Source: a virus
Reading direction: 5' to 3' (one strand)
Virus record (IMG/VR): IMGVR_UViG_3300033145_002563
Coordinates: 276 to 64,275 of that record
DNA length: 64,000 nt
The translations under genes were made by a program, and so were the position numbers. Shown one piece after another: positions 48,015-63,143 of the stretch; position 1 is the stretch's first letter, and each line of letters starts with the position of its first letter. Under the pieces are notes generated by a model. It saw only the letters and a program-made list of their open reading frames with translations, was not told where the DNA came from and did not search any database.

Positions 48015-48953
48015 TCATAAAATCCTAGCTATCTTTTTCAGATGACAACGCACAGCCTCCTTTGAAATCTTTTCCCATTTATTCTTTTTTGCCTCTTGGA
48101 TAACATTAAAAAATAAATCAAAAGCAGTCTCAAACTCTTCCGTAAATATTTTCTCAAGTTCAAGTCTTTTCTTTGTTTTAGTCTTCTTTGGTTTTTCGGC
48201 CTTTTTTATCTCCTTCAAAACTTTTCTACTCGTAACAATTTCCCCCCTTTCTCTAGCTTTTTTCTTCATCTGAACTACAACTTCAGGACTCTTAGCAATC
48301 ACTTGAGCTTGATGAGATTCTTTCTTAGTCACACCTTTCGGCAACGAAGGAAGGGAAGTTGCTCTAGAGGAACTTTCCTTCTTACGCTTGGGTTTTATCA
48401 AGGATAACATCTCCCCAAACTTAGCCTCAGCATCCAAAAGTATTTCCCCCATATCCTGAGCATCAATTAAAGCCGCCTCTTTAGCCGCACTAGCCATATC
48501 AACTTTTTCTATTGCCCTGATCTTAGCCTTTTGTGCATTTAAACGCTCCTTACCAATCAAAATAAAAGAATGAAGTTCTTCAACAGTTGCTGGTAGTCCA
48601 ACAACATCTTTAACAACCACAGATTTTTCACATTTCTCCTTACATTCTTGATATTCTTCTAGATAATTCTCACCACATCTCAAACAAGTCTCATCATCAG
48701 GATCCCAACCTTTACCAAACTCACTACAAGAAGCCTCATCTGAAACAACATCATTGTAAATCTTCACGACTTCAGATGGAATCTTCTCCTTTTCATCATC
48801 AGGAATCTTCTCAACAGACTCAACAAAAAGATCTCTCTGGTCCTCCCTTGTCAGTCCCTTAAAAGGAATTTCAAAATCTAAAAGACCAGAAGAATTGAGA
48901 ACCCTCACCACCTTCTTCAACTCACCAAAATCAATTTCTTTTACTTTTTTCAT
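48015..48953 (-). CDS. Hypothetical protein; C-half resembles helical domains seen fused to phage DNA methylases
   Basis: LPATVEEL..FILIGKERL..LDAEAKFGEML..ESHQAQ pattern, recognised from memory. Confidence 0.55.
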   Translation of the reverse strand: MKKVKEIDFGELKKVVRVLNSSGLLDFEIPFKGLTREDQRDLFVESVEKIPDDEKEKIPSEVVKIYNDVVSDEASCSEFGKGWDPDDETCLRCGENYLEEYQECKEKCEKSVVVKDVVGLPATVEELHSFILIGKERLNAQKAKIRAIEKVDMASAAKEAALIDAQDMGEILLDAEAKFGEMLSLIKPKRKKESSSRATSLPSLPKGVTKKESHQAQVIAKSPEVVVQMKKKARERGEIVTSRKVLKEIKKAEKPKKTKTKKRLELEKIFTEEFETAFDLFFNVIQEAKKNKWEKISKEAVRCHLKKIARIL

Positions 48954-48958
48954 TCCTA

Positions 48959-51754
48959 CTACCCCCTCATAATCTCAGAACCTAGATCTGTTTGGCCTAA
49001 ACTTAATTGTTGTAAAACCATCGCATGGATTCCTTCATCAAATTCAACGTGTCGATGAGCCAGAATACCAATCCTCATATACTTCCTCCGCTTCTCCTCC
49101 TTCGTTTGATTAAGAGAAAGCATCAAATCTACATGAGCCAACTTCCTTATGTCTTCAGCAGTATCAATCTGACTCACCGACTTCTTCTCAATCGAAGCTC
49201 TCGATGACTGACTCGCTGTAACCACAAGACAATGTCTTCGAGCGGCCAATCCTTTAAGCTTCTTCCAAGTCTCATCAATCCTATCACGGCCTGACAACCT
49301 AGAATCCTCAGGAGCCAAAATGTCAGCATAATCTATAATAATTACATCAGGCACAAAATCCTCAGTAAACTCCAAATTATCCAATGCCCTCATCACGTCC
49401 GACAAGTTGGCTGAATAAGCCGGAAAAGCTTTGATCCGAAGATTGTTTTTCCCATACATCCGAACAAAACTCTTAGCCACCTTTGTGATACCACCAAAAG
49501 ACATTGCTCCTTTTTCATACGAAGTAAACCAAACATCAGGCACAAAATCACTTTGTTTCTTATTCTTACATGCCACACAAGGTCTGTATGTCATAGCAGG
49601 ATCATACTCAGGCCTCTCTCCTTCTTCGTCCAGGAGGGGCTCATTGTTTTTTCTTTCCTTTCTTGAACAAGAGCCGTCCTGATTCTTTGCACAATCAAAA
49701 CAAGGATAGATAAAAAAGCCCGACCTATCTCCCTTTGCCGTCAGTCGTCTATAGATTCGCATAGAGATGCTTTTATCCCCCATCTCTAAACTAATGAATA
49801 CCACCTTCAAACGAGCTTGAATAGCTCGAATAGCCAACTCTTGTAACCAAATGCTGTTGTGAACAATTAAATCATTAGCTACAAAATTATGATTGTTTCT
49901 TATAGACAAATCATACACTTTTTGCTTTCCTTTTCGCTCGATCAGAATAATTTTATCCCACAAAATATCTGAATTAACCCACTCTATCAATAAATCATCA
50001 CTCAGTATATTAGCCATGTCAGAAACGGCGTTCCTTGTTAAATTATTTCTACATCTAATGCTTTGCTCTAAACTACTAAGACATTTCCGCTTCCACCATT
50101 TTCTATTCTGTCTTCCGTTCTCGGTCCTATATTTATCCAAACGAACTTTAACAAAATCAGAAAATTCTGGAGGAAATACATCTATAAATCCTCTACCAGT
50201 TTTTACTTTTTCCACTTCAAATCTAAAAACATTAGATTTCTCTTTTTTCTCAAACATGAAATCTATCTCATTTAAAAAACGCAACAGATTCTCTTTGTCT
50301 TGTATAATAATTTCCCATGATCTAAATTCTTTATGTCGATTCTCTTTGACTTTGCCGACTATGCCGAACCTCAACAGCAAATGGAACACTTGATATGTTA
50401 AAGTTTTACTAGCTGAAGAATAGTCAATCAAAACTCTATCTTTATCCTTCCATATAGAACCATCACATTCAAACAAAACTGACAAAAACAACTTAATACA
50501 ATCCTTATTCAATCGGAAAAGCTCATTCGGGATTTCTTTAAACTTAGATAGACAAATTTTCCCTCCTATATCTTTAAACCATTTCTTGACCAAACTAGGT
50601 CTATTATCGCCCTTATTTAACATCTCTCTTTTTACAATTCGACCAGTTCTCAAATCTTTATCGCCCCAAACTATCTTATCTCCAAACATATTAATACATG
50701 ACTCAAAATCAGAACGAATTAAAGAACTACCATTCGTAAATGTAAAAGAATTTCCTACCAAACTTCCTTCAGCTAACAAATAAGCCAACACTCTGACTTT
50801 CCACTCCGGCCACAAACAGCTTCCAAAAAAGGACAATATCTTCGGTACGGCAATAAAATCTCCGACTGATAAATCTTTAAACTCTCTCCACCCGGATACA
50901 GTAAGAAAGGGGTGTTTTTCAGTAACCTCAATTTCTCTCCCAGTTCGAGTTTTTAACAAATAAACAACCTTCTTGCCATTACAAATAACTCGCTCGACAT
51001 TATTCGAGGACAATTTCTTATGATCATTCAAAGAAACTACTGATAAAACTCTCCCACTTTCTTTAAACAGGTCTTCAATAGATTTTACAACCCCATTACT
51101 CAACAGAATTTTTGAATTGCCAGCAAGACATTTTCCTCTTTTCATTGGCCCCATAAACCCCACTAGCCAGCCCCGGCAGAAAGGACCGATTAGGTCCCCC
51201 AACTGACCTGGGAAACTGAATAAAGGAACCATAGCATTTTCGATCACACGATCCATATAATCCAGATCGTCCAAAGGAGCAACCCAAGTTGATACCTCCC
51301 GAGCTATTTTCTTGTAACTATGAATCTGTTCTTCCGCCTCACCCAATCTCCCTGTTCCAAGGAGTCCCTTAATGTTGGCCGAAACCACTATAAGAGCTCT
51401 TCTGCGAAAGTAATCTACTGTCTGATCTAAAAGGTACTCAGAGTTGAAAACTTCTTCCTGCTCATATCGAGAAGATAGTTGTTGAAGAAACACATTTATA
51501 ATACTAGATTCTTCATCAGAGATCTTCTCTTTCTCTGTATTGAAAATATCCTCAATATGCTTACCAGGAGCCTCATTGTACTCAACATAGTAATCATGAA
51601 CCCACCTGGCTACTCGCTTTGCATAGCCCACTGTAAAATGCTCATAACGAAACAAAGGAAAGACACCTTTACAATATTCAGTAGAAACTATCATTCCTGT
51701 AATGATCTTCTTTTCAATATCAACATCGACTGTTCTACGACGGAGACGGACCAT
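48959..51754 (-). CDS. dnaB: DnaB-like replicative helicase with intein
   Basis: GPMKRGK|S Walker A, FISLEM, IIIDYADI, VVTASQ, AEDIRKLAHVD. Confidence 0.92.
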   Translation of the reverse strand: MVRLRRRTVDVDIEKKIITGMIVSTEYCKGVFPLFRYEHFTVGYAKRVARWVHDYYVEYNEAPGKHIEDIFNTEKEKISDEESSIINVFLQQLSSRYEQEEVFNSEYLLDQTVDYFRRRALIVVSANIKGLLGTGRLGEAEEQIHSYKKIAREVSTWVAPLDDLDYMDRVIENAMVPLFSFPGQLGDLIGPFCRGWLVGFMGPMKRGKCLAGNSKILLSNGVVKSIEDLFKESGRVLSVVSLNDHKKLSSNNVERVICNGKKVVYLLKTRTGREIEVTEKHPFLTVSGWREFKDLSVGDFIAVPKILSFFGSCLWPEWKVRVLAYLLAEGSLVGNSFTFTNGSSLIRSDFESCINMFGDKIVWGDKDLRTGRIVKREMLNKGDNRPSLVKKWFKDIGGKICLSKFKEIPNELFRLNKDCIKLFLSVLFECDGSIWKDKDRVLIDYSSASKTLTYQVFHLLLRFGIVGKVKENRHKEFRSWEIIIQDKENLLRFLNEIDFMFEKKEKSNVFRFEVEKVKTGRGFIDVFPPEFSDFVKVRLDKYRTENGRQNRKWWKRKCLSSLEQSIRCRNNLTRNAVSDMANILSDDLLIEWVNSDILWDKIILIERKGKQKVYDLSIRNNHNFVANDLIVHNSIWLQELAIRAIQARLKVVFISLEMGDKSISMRIYRRLTAKGDRSGFFIYPCFDCAKNQDGSCSRKERKNNEPLLDEEGERPEYDPAMTYRPCVACKNKKQSDFVPDVWFTSYEKGAMSFGGITKVAKSFVRMYGKNNLRIKAFPAYSANLSDVMRALDNLEFTEDFVPDVIIIDYADILAPEDSRLSGRDRIDETWKKLKGLAARRHCLVVTASQSSRASIEKKSVSQIDTAEDIRKLAHVDLMLSLNQTKEEKRRKYMRIGILAHRHVEFDEGIHAMVLQQLSLGQTDLGSEIMRG
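49856..51130 (-). mobile_element. Intein (425 aa) with LAGLIDADG endonuclease in the DnaB P-loop
   Basis: Starts CLAGNS, TEKHPF block B, LLAEGS and FECDGS helices, ends LIVHN, +1 residue Ser. Confidence 0.93.
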
Positions 51755-56562: not shown

Positions 56563-58938
56563 TTAAAGCCAGCCTTGATCCATATACAAACATAGTCTCT
56601 CTCCAAAGTGAGAGATTAGATAATGATGAGAGTTATCAAAGAAATCGACAATAAGCACCTCAGATTTCTTATCAGTCTTCCTCAGTCCCCTACCGATTGC
56701 TTGTAATGTAGAAATCTCGCTTTTGCCCCCAGCAGCATTTACTACTGAACTAAGTGAGGGAATATTGATTCCTTCCTTCCATACAGCAGTAGATACTACA
56801 CAATTTACCTCCTTACCAATCATAGCATGGCGTGTCTCTCTTCTTACATCAGCCTCAGTAGCTCCTTGCACGAAAACTATCTCAAACCCAAAAATTTCTT
56901 TGGCCATATTTACAAGAGTTTCGCCGTGTTGAATCTTGATAACAAGGATAAGAACAGTTTTACCTTGAGCTAATAGATCTCTGACCGTCTTTAGAATTAA
57001 ACGATTTCTTCCTTTGTTTTCTACTACTCCTTTTTGATATACATCAGGGTAACGGCTCTGTTGTTTCGCAGAAGAGTTGTAAGGAACCTTGACCAGCTTG
57101 ATTTTAGGAACAGCAAGGATATTTAAACTCGCAGCCTCTTGAATTGTTAACTCTCCAATCAGAGGGCCAATATGCCCTTCTAACGCAAGCCTCGATTCTT
57201 CCCTGTCTGGTAAGGTCGCTGTCAGACCAAACCTTGCAGGAGAGATAAGAGATCCTAGTATCTTGGAATAGGTATTGGTGAAGCCGGAGATGTGATGACA
57301 GTTGTGAACTAATACTCCTTCAGCAAAATAACTATGATCGTTTTCTACTTCTAAATCATAGAATTCTATAAAGCCTTGATTTCTTTCTTTATTTCCAACA
57401 ATACTTTTGAAAGATTTGTCATTACTTCCTCGTTTGTAAATCTCAATATCTTCCACCCTAACTCGGTTAGTTTTCGTTCTTTCTTTTCGTCCTTTGCTTT
57501 GACTGATTTTGCTCGGTGACCTTTCCCGTCTATTTCTATTCCCATCTTCAGTCTGGGGTCTCCAATATCTACTTTGTAACAAGTTGGGTATCCTTGAGAT
57601 TCCAGATAGCTTCTTCTTTTTGATATCGGTCTGTCCGGAGCTAAGGGGATAGGCCATTCCGTAGGCCATCCTAAGGCAAGAGAAAGCCTGATTTGTGGTT
57701 CTGTAAGCTTTCCATTTCCTCCACGTTCTCCCAACCAGATGTTTAATGTGCCATTTATCCTTTTTGTGTTCATCATCTTCTCTATGATGCCCGGCATGTT
57801 CATGGGGTTGTTTTTTTTCATTCTTGTTGAAATGATATCTTTCCTTTTTAGATTCGTTTTCCTCATTGTTATTGAGGAGCTCTTGCTTCTCTCTGGATCT
57901 TTGTAAGCACAGGATTTTGAACAGAATCTTTGAACAGAAGCTCTTTGTTTGAAAACTATTTTGCAGATAGGGCATGTTATCTCTGGTAGTCTTGGTCCTC
58001 CCATTTTTTTCCTCCCCCAATTCATTTGATATGATGCCAAGCTTCTTGTAAAATGAATTGGGAGGAAAGTCAAGCAAAAATTTCCCTTTTGTATCTATGG
58101 CTTTTAACCATTTGTTATCTGCCCATAATAGGTGATCTTTTGTACATATTAACTCTCTTTTGTCGGACAATGTCAGCTTAATTATATTATCAAGAGAAGT
58201 GTTATTCTTGAAAATATTAGTTACCTTGTTAATCCCTGATTTAGTGAATACCTGATCTCCTATTTTAATGGTTTCTATCTTCTTATTGCCAATTGTAGTT
58301 TTGATTCTAGTGTTTTTTGGAAAGCATTCGTCGACAATTACTATATCATAACTATTGTTGTTAGATTTCCAAGGATCTAGTTTTGAGAAGGACTGCATAG
58401 TAGAAACCAGGATTCTTCCTAACTCCTTCTTTCCACCTCGGAGCCTGCCAACATCGTCAAAACCAAATTTCTTGAGTTCATCATATGTTTGGTCTATAAG
58501 ATCAACTGTGTGGGCCAAGAATAGGATCTTACAAGATGGTAAACAGGACATAATTCCCAATGCAATAATTGTCTTTCCCGACCCTGTTGGCGCTTTGATG
58601 ACTCCTCTCTGGACTTTGACCGCTTGCTGGATCAGTTTTATCTGATCTTCCCGAAAAGTTATCCCAGGAAGATTTGGTTTAATGGGAGATAGTCGTTCTT
58701 CATAGCCGTGCCAGCTAACGTCGATATTGTTCCTTTCACAGTACTCCTGTATGCGTTGCCGAAACCCTGTTAAGAATACTCCACTTTTGGAGATCAGAGA
58801 TTTTCTATATACTTTCTCTTCTCTTCTCCATTGTCCTTGTCTCCAGTACGAAGCCTCGTAAGAGAGACAGGGTCTGAGAAATTCGATGTCTTTTTTGTCC
58901 ACTTTACAATGGACAGGATCTAGTATTTCAATATCCAT
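56563..58938 (-). CDS. Superfamily 2 DExH helicase with intein
   Basis: APTGSGKT, IVDE|CHH, GLTAT, WKEGINIP, QAIGRGLR. Confidence 0.92.
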   Translation of the reverse strand: MDIEILDPVHCKVDKKDIEFLRPCLSYEASYWRQGQWRREEKVYRKSLISKSGVFLTGFRQRIQEYCERNNIDVSWHGYEERLSPIKPNLPGITFREDQIKLIQQAVKVQRGVIKAPTGSGKTIIALGIMSCLPSCKILFLAHTVDLIDQTYDELKKFGFDDVGRLRGGKKELGRILVSTMQSFSKLDPWKSNNNSYDIVIVDECFPKNTRIKTTIGNKKIETIKIGDQVFTKSGINKVTNIFKNNTSLDNIIKLTLSDKRELICTKDHLLWADNKWLKAIDTKGKFLLDFPPNSFYKKLGIISNELGEEKNGRTKTTRDNMPYLQNSFQTKSFCSKILFKILCLQRSREKQELLNNNEENESKKERYHFNKNEKKQPHEHAGHHREDDEHKKDKWHIKHLVGRTWRKWKAYRTTNQAFSCLRMAYGMAYPLSSGQTDIKKKKLSGISRIPNLLQSRYWRPQTEDGNRNRRERSPSKISQSKGRKERTKTNRVRVEDIEIYKRGSNDKSFKSIVGNKERNQGFIEFYDLEVENDHSYFAEGVLVHNCHHISGFTNTYSKILGSLISPARFGLTATLPDREESRLALEGHIGPLIGELTIQEAASLNILAVPKIKLVKVPYNSSAKQQSRYPDVYQKGVVENKGRNRLILKTVRDLLAQGKTVLILVIKIQHGETLVNMAKEIFGFEIVFVQGATEADVRRETRHAMIGKEVNCVVSTAVWKEGINIPSLSSVVNAAGGKSEISTLQAIGRGLRKTDKKSEVLIVDFFDNSHHYLISHFGERLCLYMDQGWL
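57301..58326 (-). mobile_element. Intein (342 aa) in helicase motif II whose centre is an overlapping-frame endonuclease gene
   Basis: Starts CFPKNT, CTKDH block B, FYDLEV..HSYFAEGVLVHN blocks F/G, +1 residue Cys. Confidence 0.9.
57366..58004 (-). CDS. Nested Zn-finger plus DUF559/Vsr-like endonuclease inside the intein, in a different frame
   Basis: GGAGG 6 nt before ATG at 58004; CPIC..FCSKSC; YKVDIG..GIEIDGKGH..KDEKKERKLTELGWKILRFTNEEV. Confidence 0.85.
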   Translation of the reverse strand: MGGPRLPEITCPICKIVFKQRASVQRFCSKSCAYKDPERSKSSSITMRKTNLKRKDIISTRMKKNNPMNMPGIIEKMMNTKRINGTLNIWLGERGGNGKLTEPQIRLSLALGWPTEWPIPLAPDRPISKRRSYLESQGYPTCYKVDIGDPRLKMGIEIDGKGHRAKSVKAKDEKKERKLTELGWKILRFTNEEVMTNLSKVLLEIKKEIKAL

Positions 58939-58947
58939 ATATTATAT

Positions 58948-58985
58948 TATATTATATCCTATTTCTGAAATTTTTTACAAAAAAT
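58948..58985 (-). promoter_or_regulatory. Conserved sigma70-like promoter, copy 3
   Basis: TTGTAA-AAAATTTCAGAAATAGGA-TATAAT immediately upstream of the helicase ATG. Confidence 0.75.
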
Positions 58986-61514: not shown

Positions 61515-63143
61515 GAGTGTGTCGGAAAACTCTGCCTAACATGGCAAAGCACTTCTGTTTGTTCTTTGAAAATACAAATTTGTGATCGAATCCCGCTGAC
61601 GCATCTGAATCCGGGCCGCATCATTTGCCTTTAGGCTCCTTGGGCCGGCATAAAAGGCAAAGCACCGGCCCTCTTGTTACACGCTGTTTGGCAGTAATCC
61701 ACTTCTGTGCAGCTTCAACAGATTATGCGTTAGGCATATCAAGTGCCACTCAGCGGTTACTTTGTCGAGGCCACGCAAAAGAAATCGTCGAAATCCTCGA
61801 ATTTCCTTTATTTGTCCGAAGACCGGTTCGACGATCTGTTTTCGTTTTTTGTAAACGTTCCGCCCTTTGACTGTAAGTAGCTTGCGAGCCATGCGTTCTT
61901 TAGTGGTGGCATTTTTCGGAATACGGCTACGAGGACAGGGCCTGGGCGTATCTCCATGTTTCTGCCTACCAACTGCTACATGGGCGTCTATCTGTTCCTT
62001 GGCCAGATATTTCACGTTTTCTTCACTGTAGTAACCAGCATCGGCGCTGATCTTGTTCGGCTTGTGACCTTTGAGGTTTTCTTTCAAACATTCAACCAGT
62101 GGTTTGACTTGTTGCTTATCATTGGTTTCTTGAGTAACACCTGGGGCAACAATAATTTGTGCGGTCTCATCAACGGCTGCCTGACAATTATAGGCTTGCT
62201 CAAATGATTTACTTGCCCCATCTTTCATGATGCGAGAATCGGGATCGGTGAAGTTGCGCTGGGCCTTGGAATCAGGCTCGTTACTGGGCTCTTTCGGTTT
62301 TCTGCCTTTGGGTTTTTGGCCGACTTTTGCGGTAACCTCCTCCTTGCGGCGGTTGGCTTGTCGCTTAGCGTCCGCATTGGTTCTGGCTTCTTGTTCCAAA
62401 GCCGCCTTCGCCTCTTTGATCTTTGCCAAACGGCTCTGTTTGAAACGCAGTTCCTTGGGAAGTTCATCGCCTCGGTTGCCTTTACCGTATTTGTCGTCTT
62501 CGTCGTCATCGGCGGCTTGTGCTTCGTTCAGAAGGCGTTTGACTTCTTCTTCAAGCTCTTGGGCCTTCTTTTCCATACGCCCATAGCTCATGGCCTTGTG
62601 TTTTGAGGCGTTGGCCTTGACTTTGGTACCATCGAGAGACACATGACCCAATTTGACCAGACCGGTCTTCTGGCAGATGCTAAGAATCTGAACAAACAAT
62701 CCGACCAGCGCCTCAAGATGGCGTTTGCGAAACTCGGCAATAGTGTCGTGATCAGGATGTTGATCGGCAGTTAGAACACGAAAAGGAACCCGTTCATAGG
62801 TGGCCTTTTCTATTTTCCTTGAACTGGGCACACCCACACAGTAAGCATAAAGCAGTAGACTGGTCATCATCTCTGGATCGAACGGCGGTTGGCCGCCCTT
62901 TGAGCCGTCATAGCTCAGGTAAATATCGGAAAGATTGAGTTGGCCAACCACATCCATGATGAAATAGGCCAAATCGTCTTCCGGTAACCAGTCCTTCATG
63001 TCTGGCGGCAGAAGTAACAACTGCCCCGGCGTGTACGGTTTGAATCGTGTTTGATTTTTCATGAAAACAAAACTATCAATCTCAATAGCTAACTGCAATA
63101 GTTATTTAAGACAAGACCTGAAAGAGGGTTCTCCGACAGGCTC
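61515..63143 (-). mobile_element. IS1182 family insertion sequence
   Basis: Imperfect terminal IRs GAGTGTGTCGGAAAACTCT / GAGCCTGTCGGAGAACCCT; CTAG at 61511-61514 and 63144-63147; high GC. Confidence 0.9.
61677..63062 (-). CDS. IS1182 family DDE transposase (probable start MKNQ)
   Basis: LLLPPDMKDWLP, GQPPFDP, PDHDTIAEFRKR, LDGTKVKANAS, TDPDSRIM, ADAGY, RKQIVEPVFGQIK. Confidence 0.95.
   Translation of the reverse strand: MKNQTRFKPYTPGQLLLLPPDMKDWLPEDDLAYFIMDVVGQLNLSDIYLSYDGSKGGQPPFDPEMMTSLLLYAYCVGVPSSRKIEKATYERVPFRVLTADQHPDHDTIAEFRKRHLEALVGLFVQILSICQKTGLVKLGHVSLDGTKVKANASKHKAMSYGRMEKKAQELEEEVKRLLNEAQAADDDEDDKYGKGNRGDELPKELRFKQSRLAKIKEAKAALEQEARTNADAKRQANRRKEEVTAKVGQKPKGRKPKEPSNEPDSKAQRNFTDPDSRIMKDGASKSFEQAYNCQAAVDETAQIIVAPGVTQETNDKQQVKPLVECLKENLKGHKPNKISADAGYYSEENVKYLAKEQIDAHVAVGRQKHGDTPRPCPRSRIPKNATTKERMARKLLTVKGRNVYKKRKQIVEPVFGQIKEIRGFRRFLLRGLDKVTAEWHLICLTHNLLKLHRSGLLPNSV

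What the first reader, a model, noticed from the sequence alone, without database searches (positions are those of the whole stretch)
57301..58326. Intein whose homing endonuclease is a separate gene in an overlapping reading frame
Seen: the helicase/intein frame stays open for 791 codons, but its central ~210 residues match no endonuclease and read like off-frame sequence. The same strand in another frame encodes a 212-aa Zn-finger plus DUF559/Vsr-like nuclease with its own GGAGG RBS (ATG 58004) and a stop at the start of intein block F. Keeping both frames open over 639 nt of AT-rich DNA is very unlikely by chance. Inference: a free-standing endonuclease invaded a mini-intein and is tolerated because the junk translation is spliced out; the nuclease is made independently and could drive homing of the composite. 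Similar non-canonical architectures may have been reported in phage inteins, so novelty needs a literature check.
Basis: partly seen in the sequence, partly recalled or inferred. Interest (0 to 1): 0.85.

Follow-up and report, generated by a model that had tools for sequence, protein, structure and literature searches.

The report
Helicase intein with out-of-frame homing endonuclease
A phage helicase gene is interrupted by a self-splicing intein whose middle also encodes, one base out of register, an intact DNA-cutting "homing" enzyme; the two-frame layout is real and under selection, but it belongs to a large family and the general design has already been published.

Summary
On the minus strand, a 791-codon SF2 helicase ORF (56563-58938) carries a 342-residue class-1 intein (58326-57301) inserted in motif II (DE|CHH). 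The +1 frame holds a 212-codon gene (ATG 58004, stop 57366-57368) with a GGAGG ribosome-binding site. It encodes a zinc finger plus a DUF559/Vsr-like (EDxHD-type) nuclease.

Given the nuclease protein, the chance that the helicase frame stays stop-free is about 5e-12. Only the nested frame shows protein-level conservation. Its model is confident (pLDDT 93.5), while the helicase-frame centre is predicted disordered.

The same +1 arrangement occurs in 77 of the 80 best-matching IMG/VR loci. It also occurs in all five named-phage loci examined (41 records matched), always at DE|C..N|C(H) Walker-B sites. The hosts are clamp loaders (most) and three helicase types. Free-standing relatives exist, and gene calls point to "fractured gene" relatives.

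The invasion is ancient, not specific to this phage. The nuclease gene also overlaps about 35 codons of the structured C-terminal splicing region.

Out-of-frame intein endonucleases are already published (Gorbalenya 1998; Gosselin 2025; Phillips 2026). This scan also found the same element at least eight times on other DNA. I rate it a new variant of a known kind. Expression, splicing and cleavage are untested.

The parts
56563..58938 (-). SF2 (ResIII/DEAD + Helicase_C) helicase precursor ORF, 791 codons, continuous through the intein
   Evidence: The exteins align without gaps to ~450-aa intein-less orthologs.
58327..58938 (-). N-extein (204 aa), ending in the motif II residues ..IVIVDE
57301..58326 (-). 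Class-1 intein, 342 aa: C1, block B T62-K-D-H65, terminal H341-N342, followed by +1 Cys
   Evidence: Pfam Intein_splicing scores 39.9 bits against a cut-off of 35.8. C1, H65, H341 and N342 are invariant.
58048..58326 (-). N-terminal splicing (HINT) segment, intein residues 1-93
   Evidence: pLDDT is about 92-94 over residues 1-80 and 77 over residues 81-90; the segment is beta-rich
57475..58047 (-). Helicase-frame linker (intein residues 94-284): stop-free but unconserved and predicted disordered
   Evidence: pLDDT 29-45; host-frame identity equals third-frame identity; stop-free with P=4.8e-12
57301..57474 (-). C-terminal splicing segment (intein residues 285-342, blocks F/G, ..VLVHN)
   Evidence: pLDDT 88-93; conserved in seven aligned inteins
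58011..58015 (-). Shine-Dalgarno GGAGG, 6 nt upstream of the nested ATG
   Evidence: AAGGAGG-type SDs are usual in this phage's genes. SD plus start is found in 59 of 79 relatives against a 12% background.
57366..58004 (-). Nested homing-endonuclease gene in the +1 frame: 212 codons plus TAG stop
57909..57974 (-). Zinc finger of the nuclease (C11, C14, C28, C32; FCS/MYM/YacG-like treble clef)
   Evidence: The cysteines are invariant or nearly so. The profile matches FCS finger 2l8e at E=0.005. zf-FCS is found in 7 of 39 relatives.
57369..57710 (-). DUF559/Vsr-like (EDxHD-type) catalytic domain, residues 99-212; D146, E157, D159, H163 and D172 are invariant
   Evidence: Pfam DUF559 1.8e-12. VIA Z is 12.2 to 3hrl, 11.0 to I-Bth0305I 3r3p, and 9.6 to Vsr 1cw0.
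57369..57474 (-). True dual-coding stretch: the nuclease C-terminal strand and helices overlap the structured C-terminal HINT segment
   Evidence: Both frames are conserved in the last ~30 nuclease codons across 41 loci; pLDDT values are
56563..57300 (-). C-extein (245 aa, starts CHHISG..) plus stop codon

Best explanation
This is a composite selfish element inside a phage SF2 helicase gene. A class-1 intein sits exactly between the DE and CHH of helicase motif II. Its N-terminal (~93 aa) and C-terminal (~58 aa) parts form the HINT splicing domain. The ~190 residues between them, read in the helicase frame, are a disordered, unconserved, stop-free linker that leaves with the intein when the precursor splices (inferred). 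The same DNA, read one base later, is a complete gene for a homing endonuclease. That enzyme has an FCS-type zinc finger, a helical DNA-binding region and an EDxHD/Vsr-like (DUF559) nuclease domain. It is translated on its own from an internal GGAGG-N6-ATG (inferred from sequence and comparative data). The enzyme is expected to cut intein-less alleles around GAYGAR|TGYCAY, so that recombinational repair copies intein and nuclease gene together (inferred by analogy with I-Bth0305I and other homing endonucleases). Selection therefore acts in three ways. It preserves the nuclease protein in the +1 frame. It removes stop codons from the helicase frame. It acts on both frames at once in the last ~35 nuclease codons, which overlap the C-terminal splicing segment. 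The composite is old: it keeps the same +1 register in clamp-loader, SF2, CP-T1-type and SNF2-type ATPase genes, always at the Walker-B/motif-II DE|CH site.
For: Anatomy. The helicase frame is kept open against chance: P=4.8e-12 in the window and 7e-4 to 6e-12 in 8 other loci, while the third frame has 12-24 stops. Selection is frame-specific: nucleotide identity is 0.53/0.58/0.35 by nested codon position, and amino-acid identity is 0.40 (nested), 0.21 (host) and 0.22 (third frame). Folds: the nuclease model has pLDDT 93.5 and matches 3hrl at Z 12.2, I-Bth0305I at Z 11.0 and Vsr at Z 9.6. The profile matches 3hrl at 4e-12 and 3r3p at 0.006. Y143, D146, E157, D159, H163, D172 and K175 are invariant in 39 homologs. 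The intein model is confident at both ends and below pLDDT 50 for residues 94-284. Independent initiation: SD plus start in 59 of 79 unique loci against a 12% background, and 5 or fewer open codons upstream of the start in 29 of 79. Recurrence: all five named-phage loci fetched, from Vibrio, Pseudomonas and Corynebacterium phages, have the +1 layout under an annotated 'helicase'. In IMG/VR, 77 of the 80 best loci are nested at +1, 2 are cut by contig ends and 1 is free-standing. Mobility signature: about 114 of the 120 closest helicase orthologs lack any intein, and three others have the same-site intein; L010 and L011 have the same nested ORF, and the third had no DNA to check. Internal control: two other inteins in the same window (PolA, DnaB-like) carry in-frame HNH and LAGLIDADG domains that Pfam sees in the host frame.
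Against: There is no direct evidence of transcription, translation of either frame, splicing or cleavage; no sequencing run could be listed for this sequence. The closest relative of the nuclease is only ~60% identical, so a site-wise dN/dS test on near relatives could not be run. The choice of start codon in the SD census was made by me among several candidates, which inflates the 59/79 figure somewhat. The top-80 census is biased towards sequences like the query. The nuclease's DNA-binding part differs from I-Bth0305I (zinc finger instead of NUMOD repeats), so the target site is inferred only from the insertion point.
Confidence: 0.82

Rival explanations
1. The nested nuclease is intact but no longer serves homing. 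It may be domesticated, or used by the phage against competing phages (marker exclusion), or have some other DNA transaction role. The intein then persists mainly by vertical descent.
For: Phage homing endonucleases are known to act in inter-phage competition (general knowledge; PMC10448857 was listed but not read). Free-standing relatives sit in intergenic positions next to replication genes (L012, L082).
Against: The intein is sporadic among close helicase orthologs. The same composite occurs in four unrelated ATPase families at one motif. Both are the classic signature of ongoing or recent homing.
Confidence: 0.08
2. The nested ORF is a decaying relic. The element is effectively a mini-intein with a long linker, and the nuclease is inactive or not made.
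For: No expression data exist. Homing-cycle theory predicts endonuclease decay after fixation.
Against: All catalytic and zinc-binding residues are invariant across 39 homologs. The third-codon-position pattern fits the nested frame. The ORF has no stops, retains its SD and ATG, and the model has pLDDT 93.5.
Confidence: 0.06
3. The nuclease is made by programmed +1 ribosomal frameshifting from the helicase frame, as a fusion with the N-extein and the N-terminal intein half, not by internal initiation.
For: In the window the +1 frame is open for 30 codons upstream of the ATG.
Against: 29 of 79 relatives have a stop 5 or fewer codons upstream of the start in the nuclease frame, only 1 codon upstream in L002 and L011. 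An SD plus ATG is conserved. No shared slippery site was seen.
Confidence: 0.03
4. It is a sequencing or assembly artefact: an ordinary in-frame endonuclease domain shifted out of frame by two compensating indels.
For: The window comes from a metagenome-derived virus record.
Against: The same +1 register is seen in 79 unique independent loci, including five loci fetched from cultured, named phages. The nuclease has its own start and stop. Its stop lies inside the conserved C-terminal splicing segment, which cannot be in frame with it. The helicase frame is open at P~5e-12.
Confidence: 0.01

Closest known systems
Non-canonical inteins with the homing endonuclease in a separate ORF: actinobacteriophage inteins (Gosselin, Arsenault & Gogarten, bioRxiv 10.1101/2025.01.02.630785) and Gorbalenya 1998 as cited there
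   Same: The intein frame is open but structureless in the middle. The endonuclease is encoded by overlapping DNA in another reading frame or strand. The elements occur in phages, show sporadic distribution and extein switching, and are proposed to originate from a free-standing endonuclease invading an intein.
   Different: That survey reports antisense LAGLIDADG, antisense VSR-like and frame-3 endonuclease-VII-like types, in DNA polymerase, minor capsid, terminase and thymidylate synthase genes. Here the VSR-like/DUF559 enzyme is on the same strand in the +1 frame and carries a zinc finger. The hosts are helicases and clamp loaders, at the DE|CH motif.
Cyanobacterial dnaX intein with an out-of-frame LAGLIDADG endonuclease (Phillips, DeSimone & Gogarten, bioRxiv 10.64898/2026.09.14.751524)
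   Same: Same-strand overlapping ORF with a putative SD; disordered in-frame centre against a confident alternate-frame fold; frame-dependent selection; secondary invasion of a mini-intein proposed.
   Different: The endonuclease family differs (LAGLIDADG, +2 ORF), and the host is a cellular dnaX gene in one phylum. The family here is phage-borne, uses an EDxHD/Vsr-like nuclease and occupies four ATPase families.
Fractured genes: split inteins flanking a free-standing Vsr-like or GIY-YIG endonuclease gene (Dassa et al. 2009, PMC2677866)
   Same: The nuclease type is the same (Vsr-like), and so are the phage replication-gene hosts. The 3' end of the endonuclease gene overlaps the coding sequence of the C-terminal intein part (6-69 bp there, about 105 nt here). 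Gene calls on one metagenome contig suggest that a relative of this very helicase/nuclease pair has the fractured layout: 301-aa ResIII, then 245-aa DUF559, then 317-aa Helicase_C overlapping by 91 nt. No DNA was available to confirm it.
   Different: In the window the host gene is not broken. The helicase frame reads through the endonuclease gene, so the intein is contiguous and cis-splicing rather than split.
I-Bth0305I, prototype of the EDxHD homing endonuclease family (Taylor et al. 2011, PMC3239194; PDB 3r3p)
   Same: Vsr-like catalytic fold (Z 11.0, rmsd 2.4 A over 88 residues, 25% identity), and a composite acidic/His active site. The metal-binding Asp and the general-base His are 17 residues apart in both proteins (D146/H163 here, D196/H213 there). 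This pairing rests on that spacing, because the profile alignment starts after D146. Both have a bipartite architecture with an N-terminal DNA-binding part.
   Different: I-Bth0305I is encoded in a group I intron in recA and binds DNA through NUMOD repeats. This enzyme is overprinted on an intein and has an FCS-type zinc finger. By sequence its closest solved relative is the DUF559 protein 3hrl (E=4e-12).
ShiLan insertion with a hidden out-of-frame HNH endonuclease in a phage methylase (Arsenault et al. 2025, PMC11855218)
   Same: The insert is stop-free in the host frame and hides an endonuclease in another frame.
   Different: ShiLan has no detectable splicing domain. Here a complete intein flanks the hidden gene.

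Membership tests
Class-1 intein (HINT splicing domain) | N-terminal nucleophile (Cys/Ser) as the first intein residue | tested here: met
   C1 (TGC 58326-58324), invariant in 7 aligned inteins
Class-1 intein (HINT splicing domain) | Block B TxxH motif | tested here: met
   T62-K-D-H65; H65 is invariant
Class-1 intein (HINT splicing domain) | C-terminal His-Asn followed by Cys/Ser/Thr at +1 | tested here: met
   ..VLVHN|C (57306-57298); H341 and N342 are invariant. The junction is HN|CH in most of 76 loci.
Class-1 intein (HINT splicing domain) | Profile match above the curated threshold, and a precise in-frame insertion relative to intein-less orthologs | tested here: met
   PF14890 scores 39.9 bits against a cut-off of 35.8. 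Intein-less orthologs read ..VDECHH.. with no gap.
Class-1 intein (HINT splicing domain) | Protein splicing activity | not testable with these tools
   Needs expression of the precursor
EDxHD / Vsr-like homing endonucleases (I-Bth0305I family; Pfam DUF559) | Vsr-type restriction-endonuclease-like catalytic fold | tested here: met
   VIA Z 12.2 (3hrl, rmsd 1.2, 84 aligned), 11.0 (3r3p, rmsd 2.4, 88 aligned), 9.6 (1cw0); DUF559 E=1.8e-12
EDxHD / Vsr-like homing endonucleases (I-Bth0305I family; Pfam DUF559) | Composite catalytic residues (acidic, Asp, His general base, Asp) | tested here: met
   D146, E157, D159, H163 and D172 are invariant in 39 homologs. The IE.DG..H...D block aligns to IEVNG..(H213A)...D of 3r3p with a one-residue shift.
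EDxHD / Vsr-like homing endonucleases (I-Bth0305I family; Pfam DUF559) | N-terminal DNA-binding region with NUMOD-type modules | tested here: inconclusive
   NUMOD3 is found in only 1 of 39 homologs. Zinc fingers (zf-FCS in 7 of 39, YacG in 3 of 39) are found instead.
EDxHD / Vsr-like homing endonucleases (I-Bth0305I family; Pfam DUF559) | Site-specific cleavage of the element-free allele | not testable with these tools
   Needs purified protein and the GTCGACGAA|TGTCATCAC substrate
Non-canonical inteins with an endonuclease in a separate overlapping ORF | Intein frame open but without a recognisable or foldable endonuclease domain | tested here: met
   No Pfam endonuclease in the host frame; pLDDT below 50 for residues 94-284
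Non-canonical inteins with an endonuclease in a separate overlapping ORF | The alternate frame encodes a confidently folded endonuclease under frame-specific purifying selection | tested here: met
Non-canonical inteins with an endonuclease in a separate overlapping ORF | Sporadic distribution among orthologous host genes | tested here: met
   About 114 of 120 nearest helicase orthologs are intein-less, and 4 (including the window) have this intein
Fractured genes with split inteins (Dassa 2009) | Host gene broken into two separately translated ORFs around the endonuclease gene | tested here: not met
   The helicase frame has no stop from 58938 to 56566. Relatives on two metagenome contigs appear fractured, judging from gene calls only.
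Fractured genes with split inteins (Dassa 2009) | The 3' end of the endonuclease gene overlaps the coding region of the C-terminal intein part | tested here: met
   The nuclease stop is 65 nt before the intein end (median 65, range 8-74 in 79 loci)

The most novel reading that the evidence does not exclude
The element may be a motif-targeted homing cassette rather than a gene-targeted one. The nuclease would recognise little more than the GAYGAR|TGYCAY codons of the Walker-B/motif-II DE-CH box. This would let one intein-plus-overprinted-nuclease unit hop between unrelated P-loop ATPase genes (clamp loader, three helicase families). The same lineage would also supply the missing contiguous intermediate from which naturally split inteins ('fractured genes') arise by a single stop codon in the junk linker.
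Probability: 0.4. Interest if true: 0.65.

Novelty: new variant of a known kind. Interest (0 to 1): 0.5.

Why it matters
Annotation pipelines miss the nested gene: in all five named-phage loci examined, only a single long 'helicase' or 'hypothetical protein' gene was annotated. A common class of phage homing endonucleases is therefore invisible in databases. The family gives a clean natural example of long-range overprinting (about 640 nt) in which one frame needs only to avoid stop codons, because its product is discarded by protein splicing. It also includes a short stretch where both frames are functional. Contiguous, free-standing and, judging by gene calls, fractured forms of the same nuclease/host pair seem to coexist. 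The family thus makes the proposed route from contiguous intein to split intein directly testable. It could also supply new cis- and trans-splicing inteins and a new sequence-specific nuclease scaffold.

Tried and rejected
- blastn of the helicase gene against GenBank phages found no match, so no close cultured relative is known.
- The first synonymous-resampling script timed out. It was replaced by an exact dynamic-programming calculation.
- Foldseek against the PDB gave no hit at E<=0.001; the best hit was 3r3p at E=0.014. The VIA second look gave clear Z scores.
- The sigma-70 promoter scan inside the intein gave only weak 9/12 matches in AT-rich DNA. It is uninformative about a separate promoter for the nested gene.
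- The look-up of sequencing runs listed no run (none was listed, which is not the same as none exists), so no read-level or RNA check was possible.
- Three metagenome contigs with informative gene layouts had no retrievable DNA (P0009, P0011 and P0166). The fractured forms therefore rest on gene calls only.
- A site-wise dN/dS test was not attempted because the nearest nuclease relative is only ~60% identical.
- The 312-aa ORF at 48015-48953 was checked as a possible clamp loader with a DECH site. It has no such motif and no Pfam hit.
Full report
**What is there**

On the minus strand of the window a single ORF of 791 codons runs from 58938 to 56566, with its stop at 56563-56565. Pfam and PHROGs identify it as an SF2 DNA helicase: ResIII/DEAD at residues 94-205 and Helicase_C at 650-753. 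An intein splicing domain matches residues 235-546 with a large internal gap.

Reading the DNA puts the intein at 58326-57301 (342 aa). It starts with Cys (TGC) directly after ..IVIVDE and ends ..VLVHN directly before CHH. The intein therefore splits helicase motif II (DE|CHH). Intein-less orthologs read ..VDECHH.. with no gap at this point.

The +1 frame of the same strand is open for 242 codons. From ATG 58004, preceded by GGAGG and a 6-nt spacer, it encodes 212 residues ending at TAG 57368-57366. Only this frame matches DUF559 (E=1.8e-12).

**Is it more than chance?**

I kept the nuclease protein fixed and resampled its codons synonymously, using the helicase gene's own codon usage. I then computed exactly the probability that the helicase frame contains no stop. 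The result is 4.8e-12 for the window. It ranges from 7e-4 to 6e-12 in eight related loci. The third frame contains 12-24 stops in every case. The helicase frame is therefore actively kept open.

**Which frame is the protein?**

I aligned nine loci by the nested protein.
- Nucleotide identity by nested codon position is 0.53, 0.58 and 0.35. This is the signature of purifying selection on the nested frame.
- Amino-acid identity is 0.40 in the nested frame.
- It is 0.21 in the helicase frame and 0.22 in the stop-filled third frame, which are indistinguishable.

AlphaFold2 with 39 homologs gives the nested protein a mean pLDDT of 93.5. The intein read in the helicase frame is confident for residues 1-90 and 285-342. 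It falls below pLDDT 50 for residues 94-284. The helicase-frame centre is therefore a stop-free, unconserved, disordered linker.

**What the nested protein is**

- Residues 99-212 superpose on the DUF559 protein 3hrl (Z 12.2, rmsd 1.2 A).
- They also superpose on the catalytic domain of the homing endonuclease I-Bth0305I (3r3p; Z 11.0, rmsd 2.4 A, 25% identity) and on Vsr (Z 9.6 and 9.1).
- A profile of the family finds 3hrl at 4e-12 and 3r3p at 0.006.
- Y143, D146, E157, D159, G160, H163, D172, K175 and W184 are invariant in 39 homologs.
- D146 and H163 have the same 17-residue spacing as the mutated catalytic D196 and H213 of I-Bth0305I (PMC3239194).
- The N-terminus has a four-cysteine finger of the FCS/MYM/YacG type, followed by helices.

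The enzyme is thus an EDxHD/Vsr-like nuclease with its own kind of DNA-binding head.

**Independent translation**

AAGGAGG-type Shine-Dalgarno sequences are usual in this phage. The nested gene's GGAGG-N6-ATG fits that pattern. Among 79 unique related loci, 59 have GGAG, GAGG or AGGA 4-16 nt before a start codon that precedes the first CxxC. The background for ATG triplets in the same genes is 12%. I chose among candidate starts, so the contrast is somewhat inflated. In 29 of the 79 loci a stop lies 5 or fewer codons upstream of the start in the nuclease frame. This rules out a conserved frameshift fusion.

In the Vibrio and Pseudomonas phage clade (L001, L002, L005) the SD is the GAGG inside the helicase-frame codons GAC-GAG-GTT ('DEV'). 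L004 has GAT-GAG-GTT at the same place.

**Overlap with the splicing domain**

The nuclease stop lies 65 nt before the intein end in the window. The median is 65 nt and the range 8-74 nt in 79 loci. Its last ~35 codons (57369-57474) overlap the structured C-terminal HINT segment. Across 41 loci both frames are conserved there. It also mirrors the 6-69-bp overlaps between endonuclease genes and the downstream split-intein part in fractured genes (PMC2677866).

**How widespread it is**

- tblastn of the nuclease against GenBank phages hits 41 records, all at under 60% identity (31-38% in the listed rows). They include Vibrio phage CP-T1, Vibrio lentus and crassostreae phages, Pseudomonas phage MR14 and Corynebacterium phage phi673. 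Every listed hit lies under a single annotated 'helicase' or 'hypothetical' CDS.
- In all five loci I fetched, the match is +1 relative to an open helicase CDS with the intein at DE|CF..HN|CHH.
- In IMG/VR, 287 stretches were confirmed. Of the best 80 loci, 77 have the nuclease in the +1 frame of an open 640-1200-codon host ORF, 2 are cut by contig ends and 1 is free-standing.
- The 69 unique hosts are 59 clamp-loader-like AAA+ genes, 5 SF2 helicases of the window's type, 2 CP-T1-type helicases, 2 SNF2-like helicases, and one unclassified, the free-standing L082.
- The reconstituted empty site shares only GAYGAR|TGYCAY.
- The window's C-terminal intein segment resembles the clamp-loader inteins as well as those of its own helicase orthologs. 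This suggests that the composite has switched exteins between DE|CH sites.

**Mobility signature and other forms**

Of the 120 nearest helicase orthologs, about 114 are 440-490 aa and intein-less. Three others (P0061, P0078, P0166) have the same-site intein. L010 and L011 DNA show the same +1 ORF ending at the same place. Two more orthologs have a different intein in the P-loop with an in-frame HNH.

Free-standing copies of the nuclease exist. L012 sits directly upstream of an intein-less clamp loader reading WLLDECQ, and L082 is intergenic. One metagenome contig has the gene calls ResIII 301 aa, then DUF559 245 aa, then Helicase_C 317 aa overlapping by 91 nt. That is the fractured-gene layout for the same helicase/nuclease pair. 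No DNA was retrievable, so this rests on gene calls (a similar case is).

**Context**

The window is part of a 68.6-kb IMG/VR virus record estimated at 32% complete. Nearly all genes are on one strand. The replication module holds three inteins: PolA with an in-frame HNH, a DnaB-like helicase with an in-frame LAGLIDADG, and this one. The two canonical inteins are a useful internal control, because Pfam sees their endonuclease domains in the host frame.

**Comparison with what is known**

The kind is published.
- Gorbalenya 1998 is cited.
- Gosselin, Arsenault & Gogarten (bioRxiv 10.1101/2025.01.02.630785) describe antisense LAGLIDADG, antisense VSR-like and frame-3 EndoVII-like endonucleases. 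These lie in actinophage inteins of polymerase, capsid, terminase and thymidylate synthase genes. The authors predict that such inteins are under-annotated.
- Phillips et al. (bioRxiv 10.64898/2026.09.14.751524) describe a +2 LAGLIDADG in cyanobacterial dnaX.
- Dassa et al. 2009 describe the split/fractured form with Vsr-like endonucleases.

In the library I could search, I found no report of a same-strand +1 DUF559/Vsr-like endonuclease in DE|CH-site inteins of helicases and clamp loaders. This scan's own notes show the same architecture found at least eight times on other DNA. Those notes agree with my reading but are not independent evidence.

**Verdict**

It is a new variant (nuclease family, strand/frame, hosts) of a recently described kind, and one more member of a large unannotated family. 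Expression, splicing and cleavage are inferred, not shown.

Noticed in passing
window 42541-45960 (-): A family-A DNA polymerase with an N-terminal uracil-DNA-glycosylase-like domain carries a second intein, with an in-frame HNH_3 endonuclease (Intein_splicing 2.7e-15, HNH_3 7.9e-06).
   Followed up: partly
window 48959-51754 (-): A DnaB-like helicase carries a third intein with an in-frame LAGLIDADG_3 domain. One phage replication module thus holds three inteins with three different endonuclease types.
   Followed up: partly
window 61677-63098 (-): A 473-aa DDE transposase (DDE_Tnp_1, DUF772; IS-like) lies inside a viral contig, next to the replication module.
   Followed up: no
window 58939-58960 (-): The helicase ATG has no Shine-Dalgarno sequence. 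Instead it is preceded by a TATAA-repeat (GATATAATATAATATAATAT), with promoter-like hexamers just upstream. This may mean a very short or absent leader, unlike most genes in the window, which have AAGGAGG.
   Followed up: no
L008 1787-4969 (+): A metagenomic clamp-loader gene carries two inteins. One is in the P-loop (GPSGC|LRGD..HHN|CGKT). The other is in Walker B and holds the nested +1 DUF559 nuclease.
   Followed up: partly
P0064 residues 125-401; P0161 residues 124-392: Orthologs of the window's helicase have a different intein in the P-loop (TG|CISGD..HN|SGKT) with an in-frame HNH. This helicase family therefore has at least two intein insertion points.
   Followed up: partly
contig of P0011 (JGI 3300040801; no DNA held): Gene calls show a fractured version of the same helicase: a 301-aa N half, a 245-aa DUF559 gene, and a 317-aa C half overlapping by 91 nt. 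It is followed by a free-standing NUMOD4/HNH_3 endonuclease gene.
   Followed up: partly
L012 3001-4768 (+): A free-standing copy of the zinc-finger/DUF559 nuclease lies 4 nt upstream of an intein-less clamp-loader gene whose Walker B reads WLLDECQ. This resembles the free-standing endonuclease-next-to-target layout of T4-like phages.
   Followed up: partly
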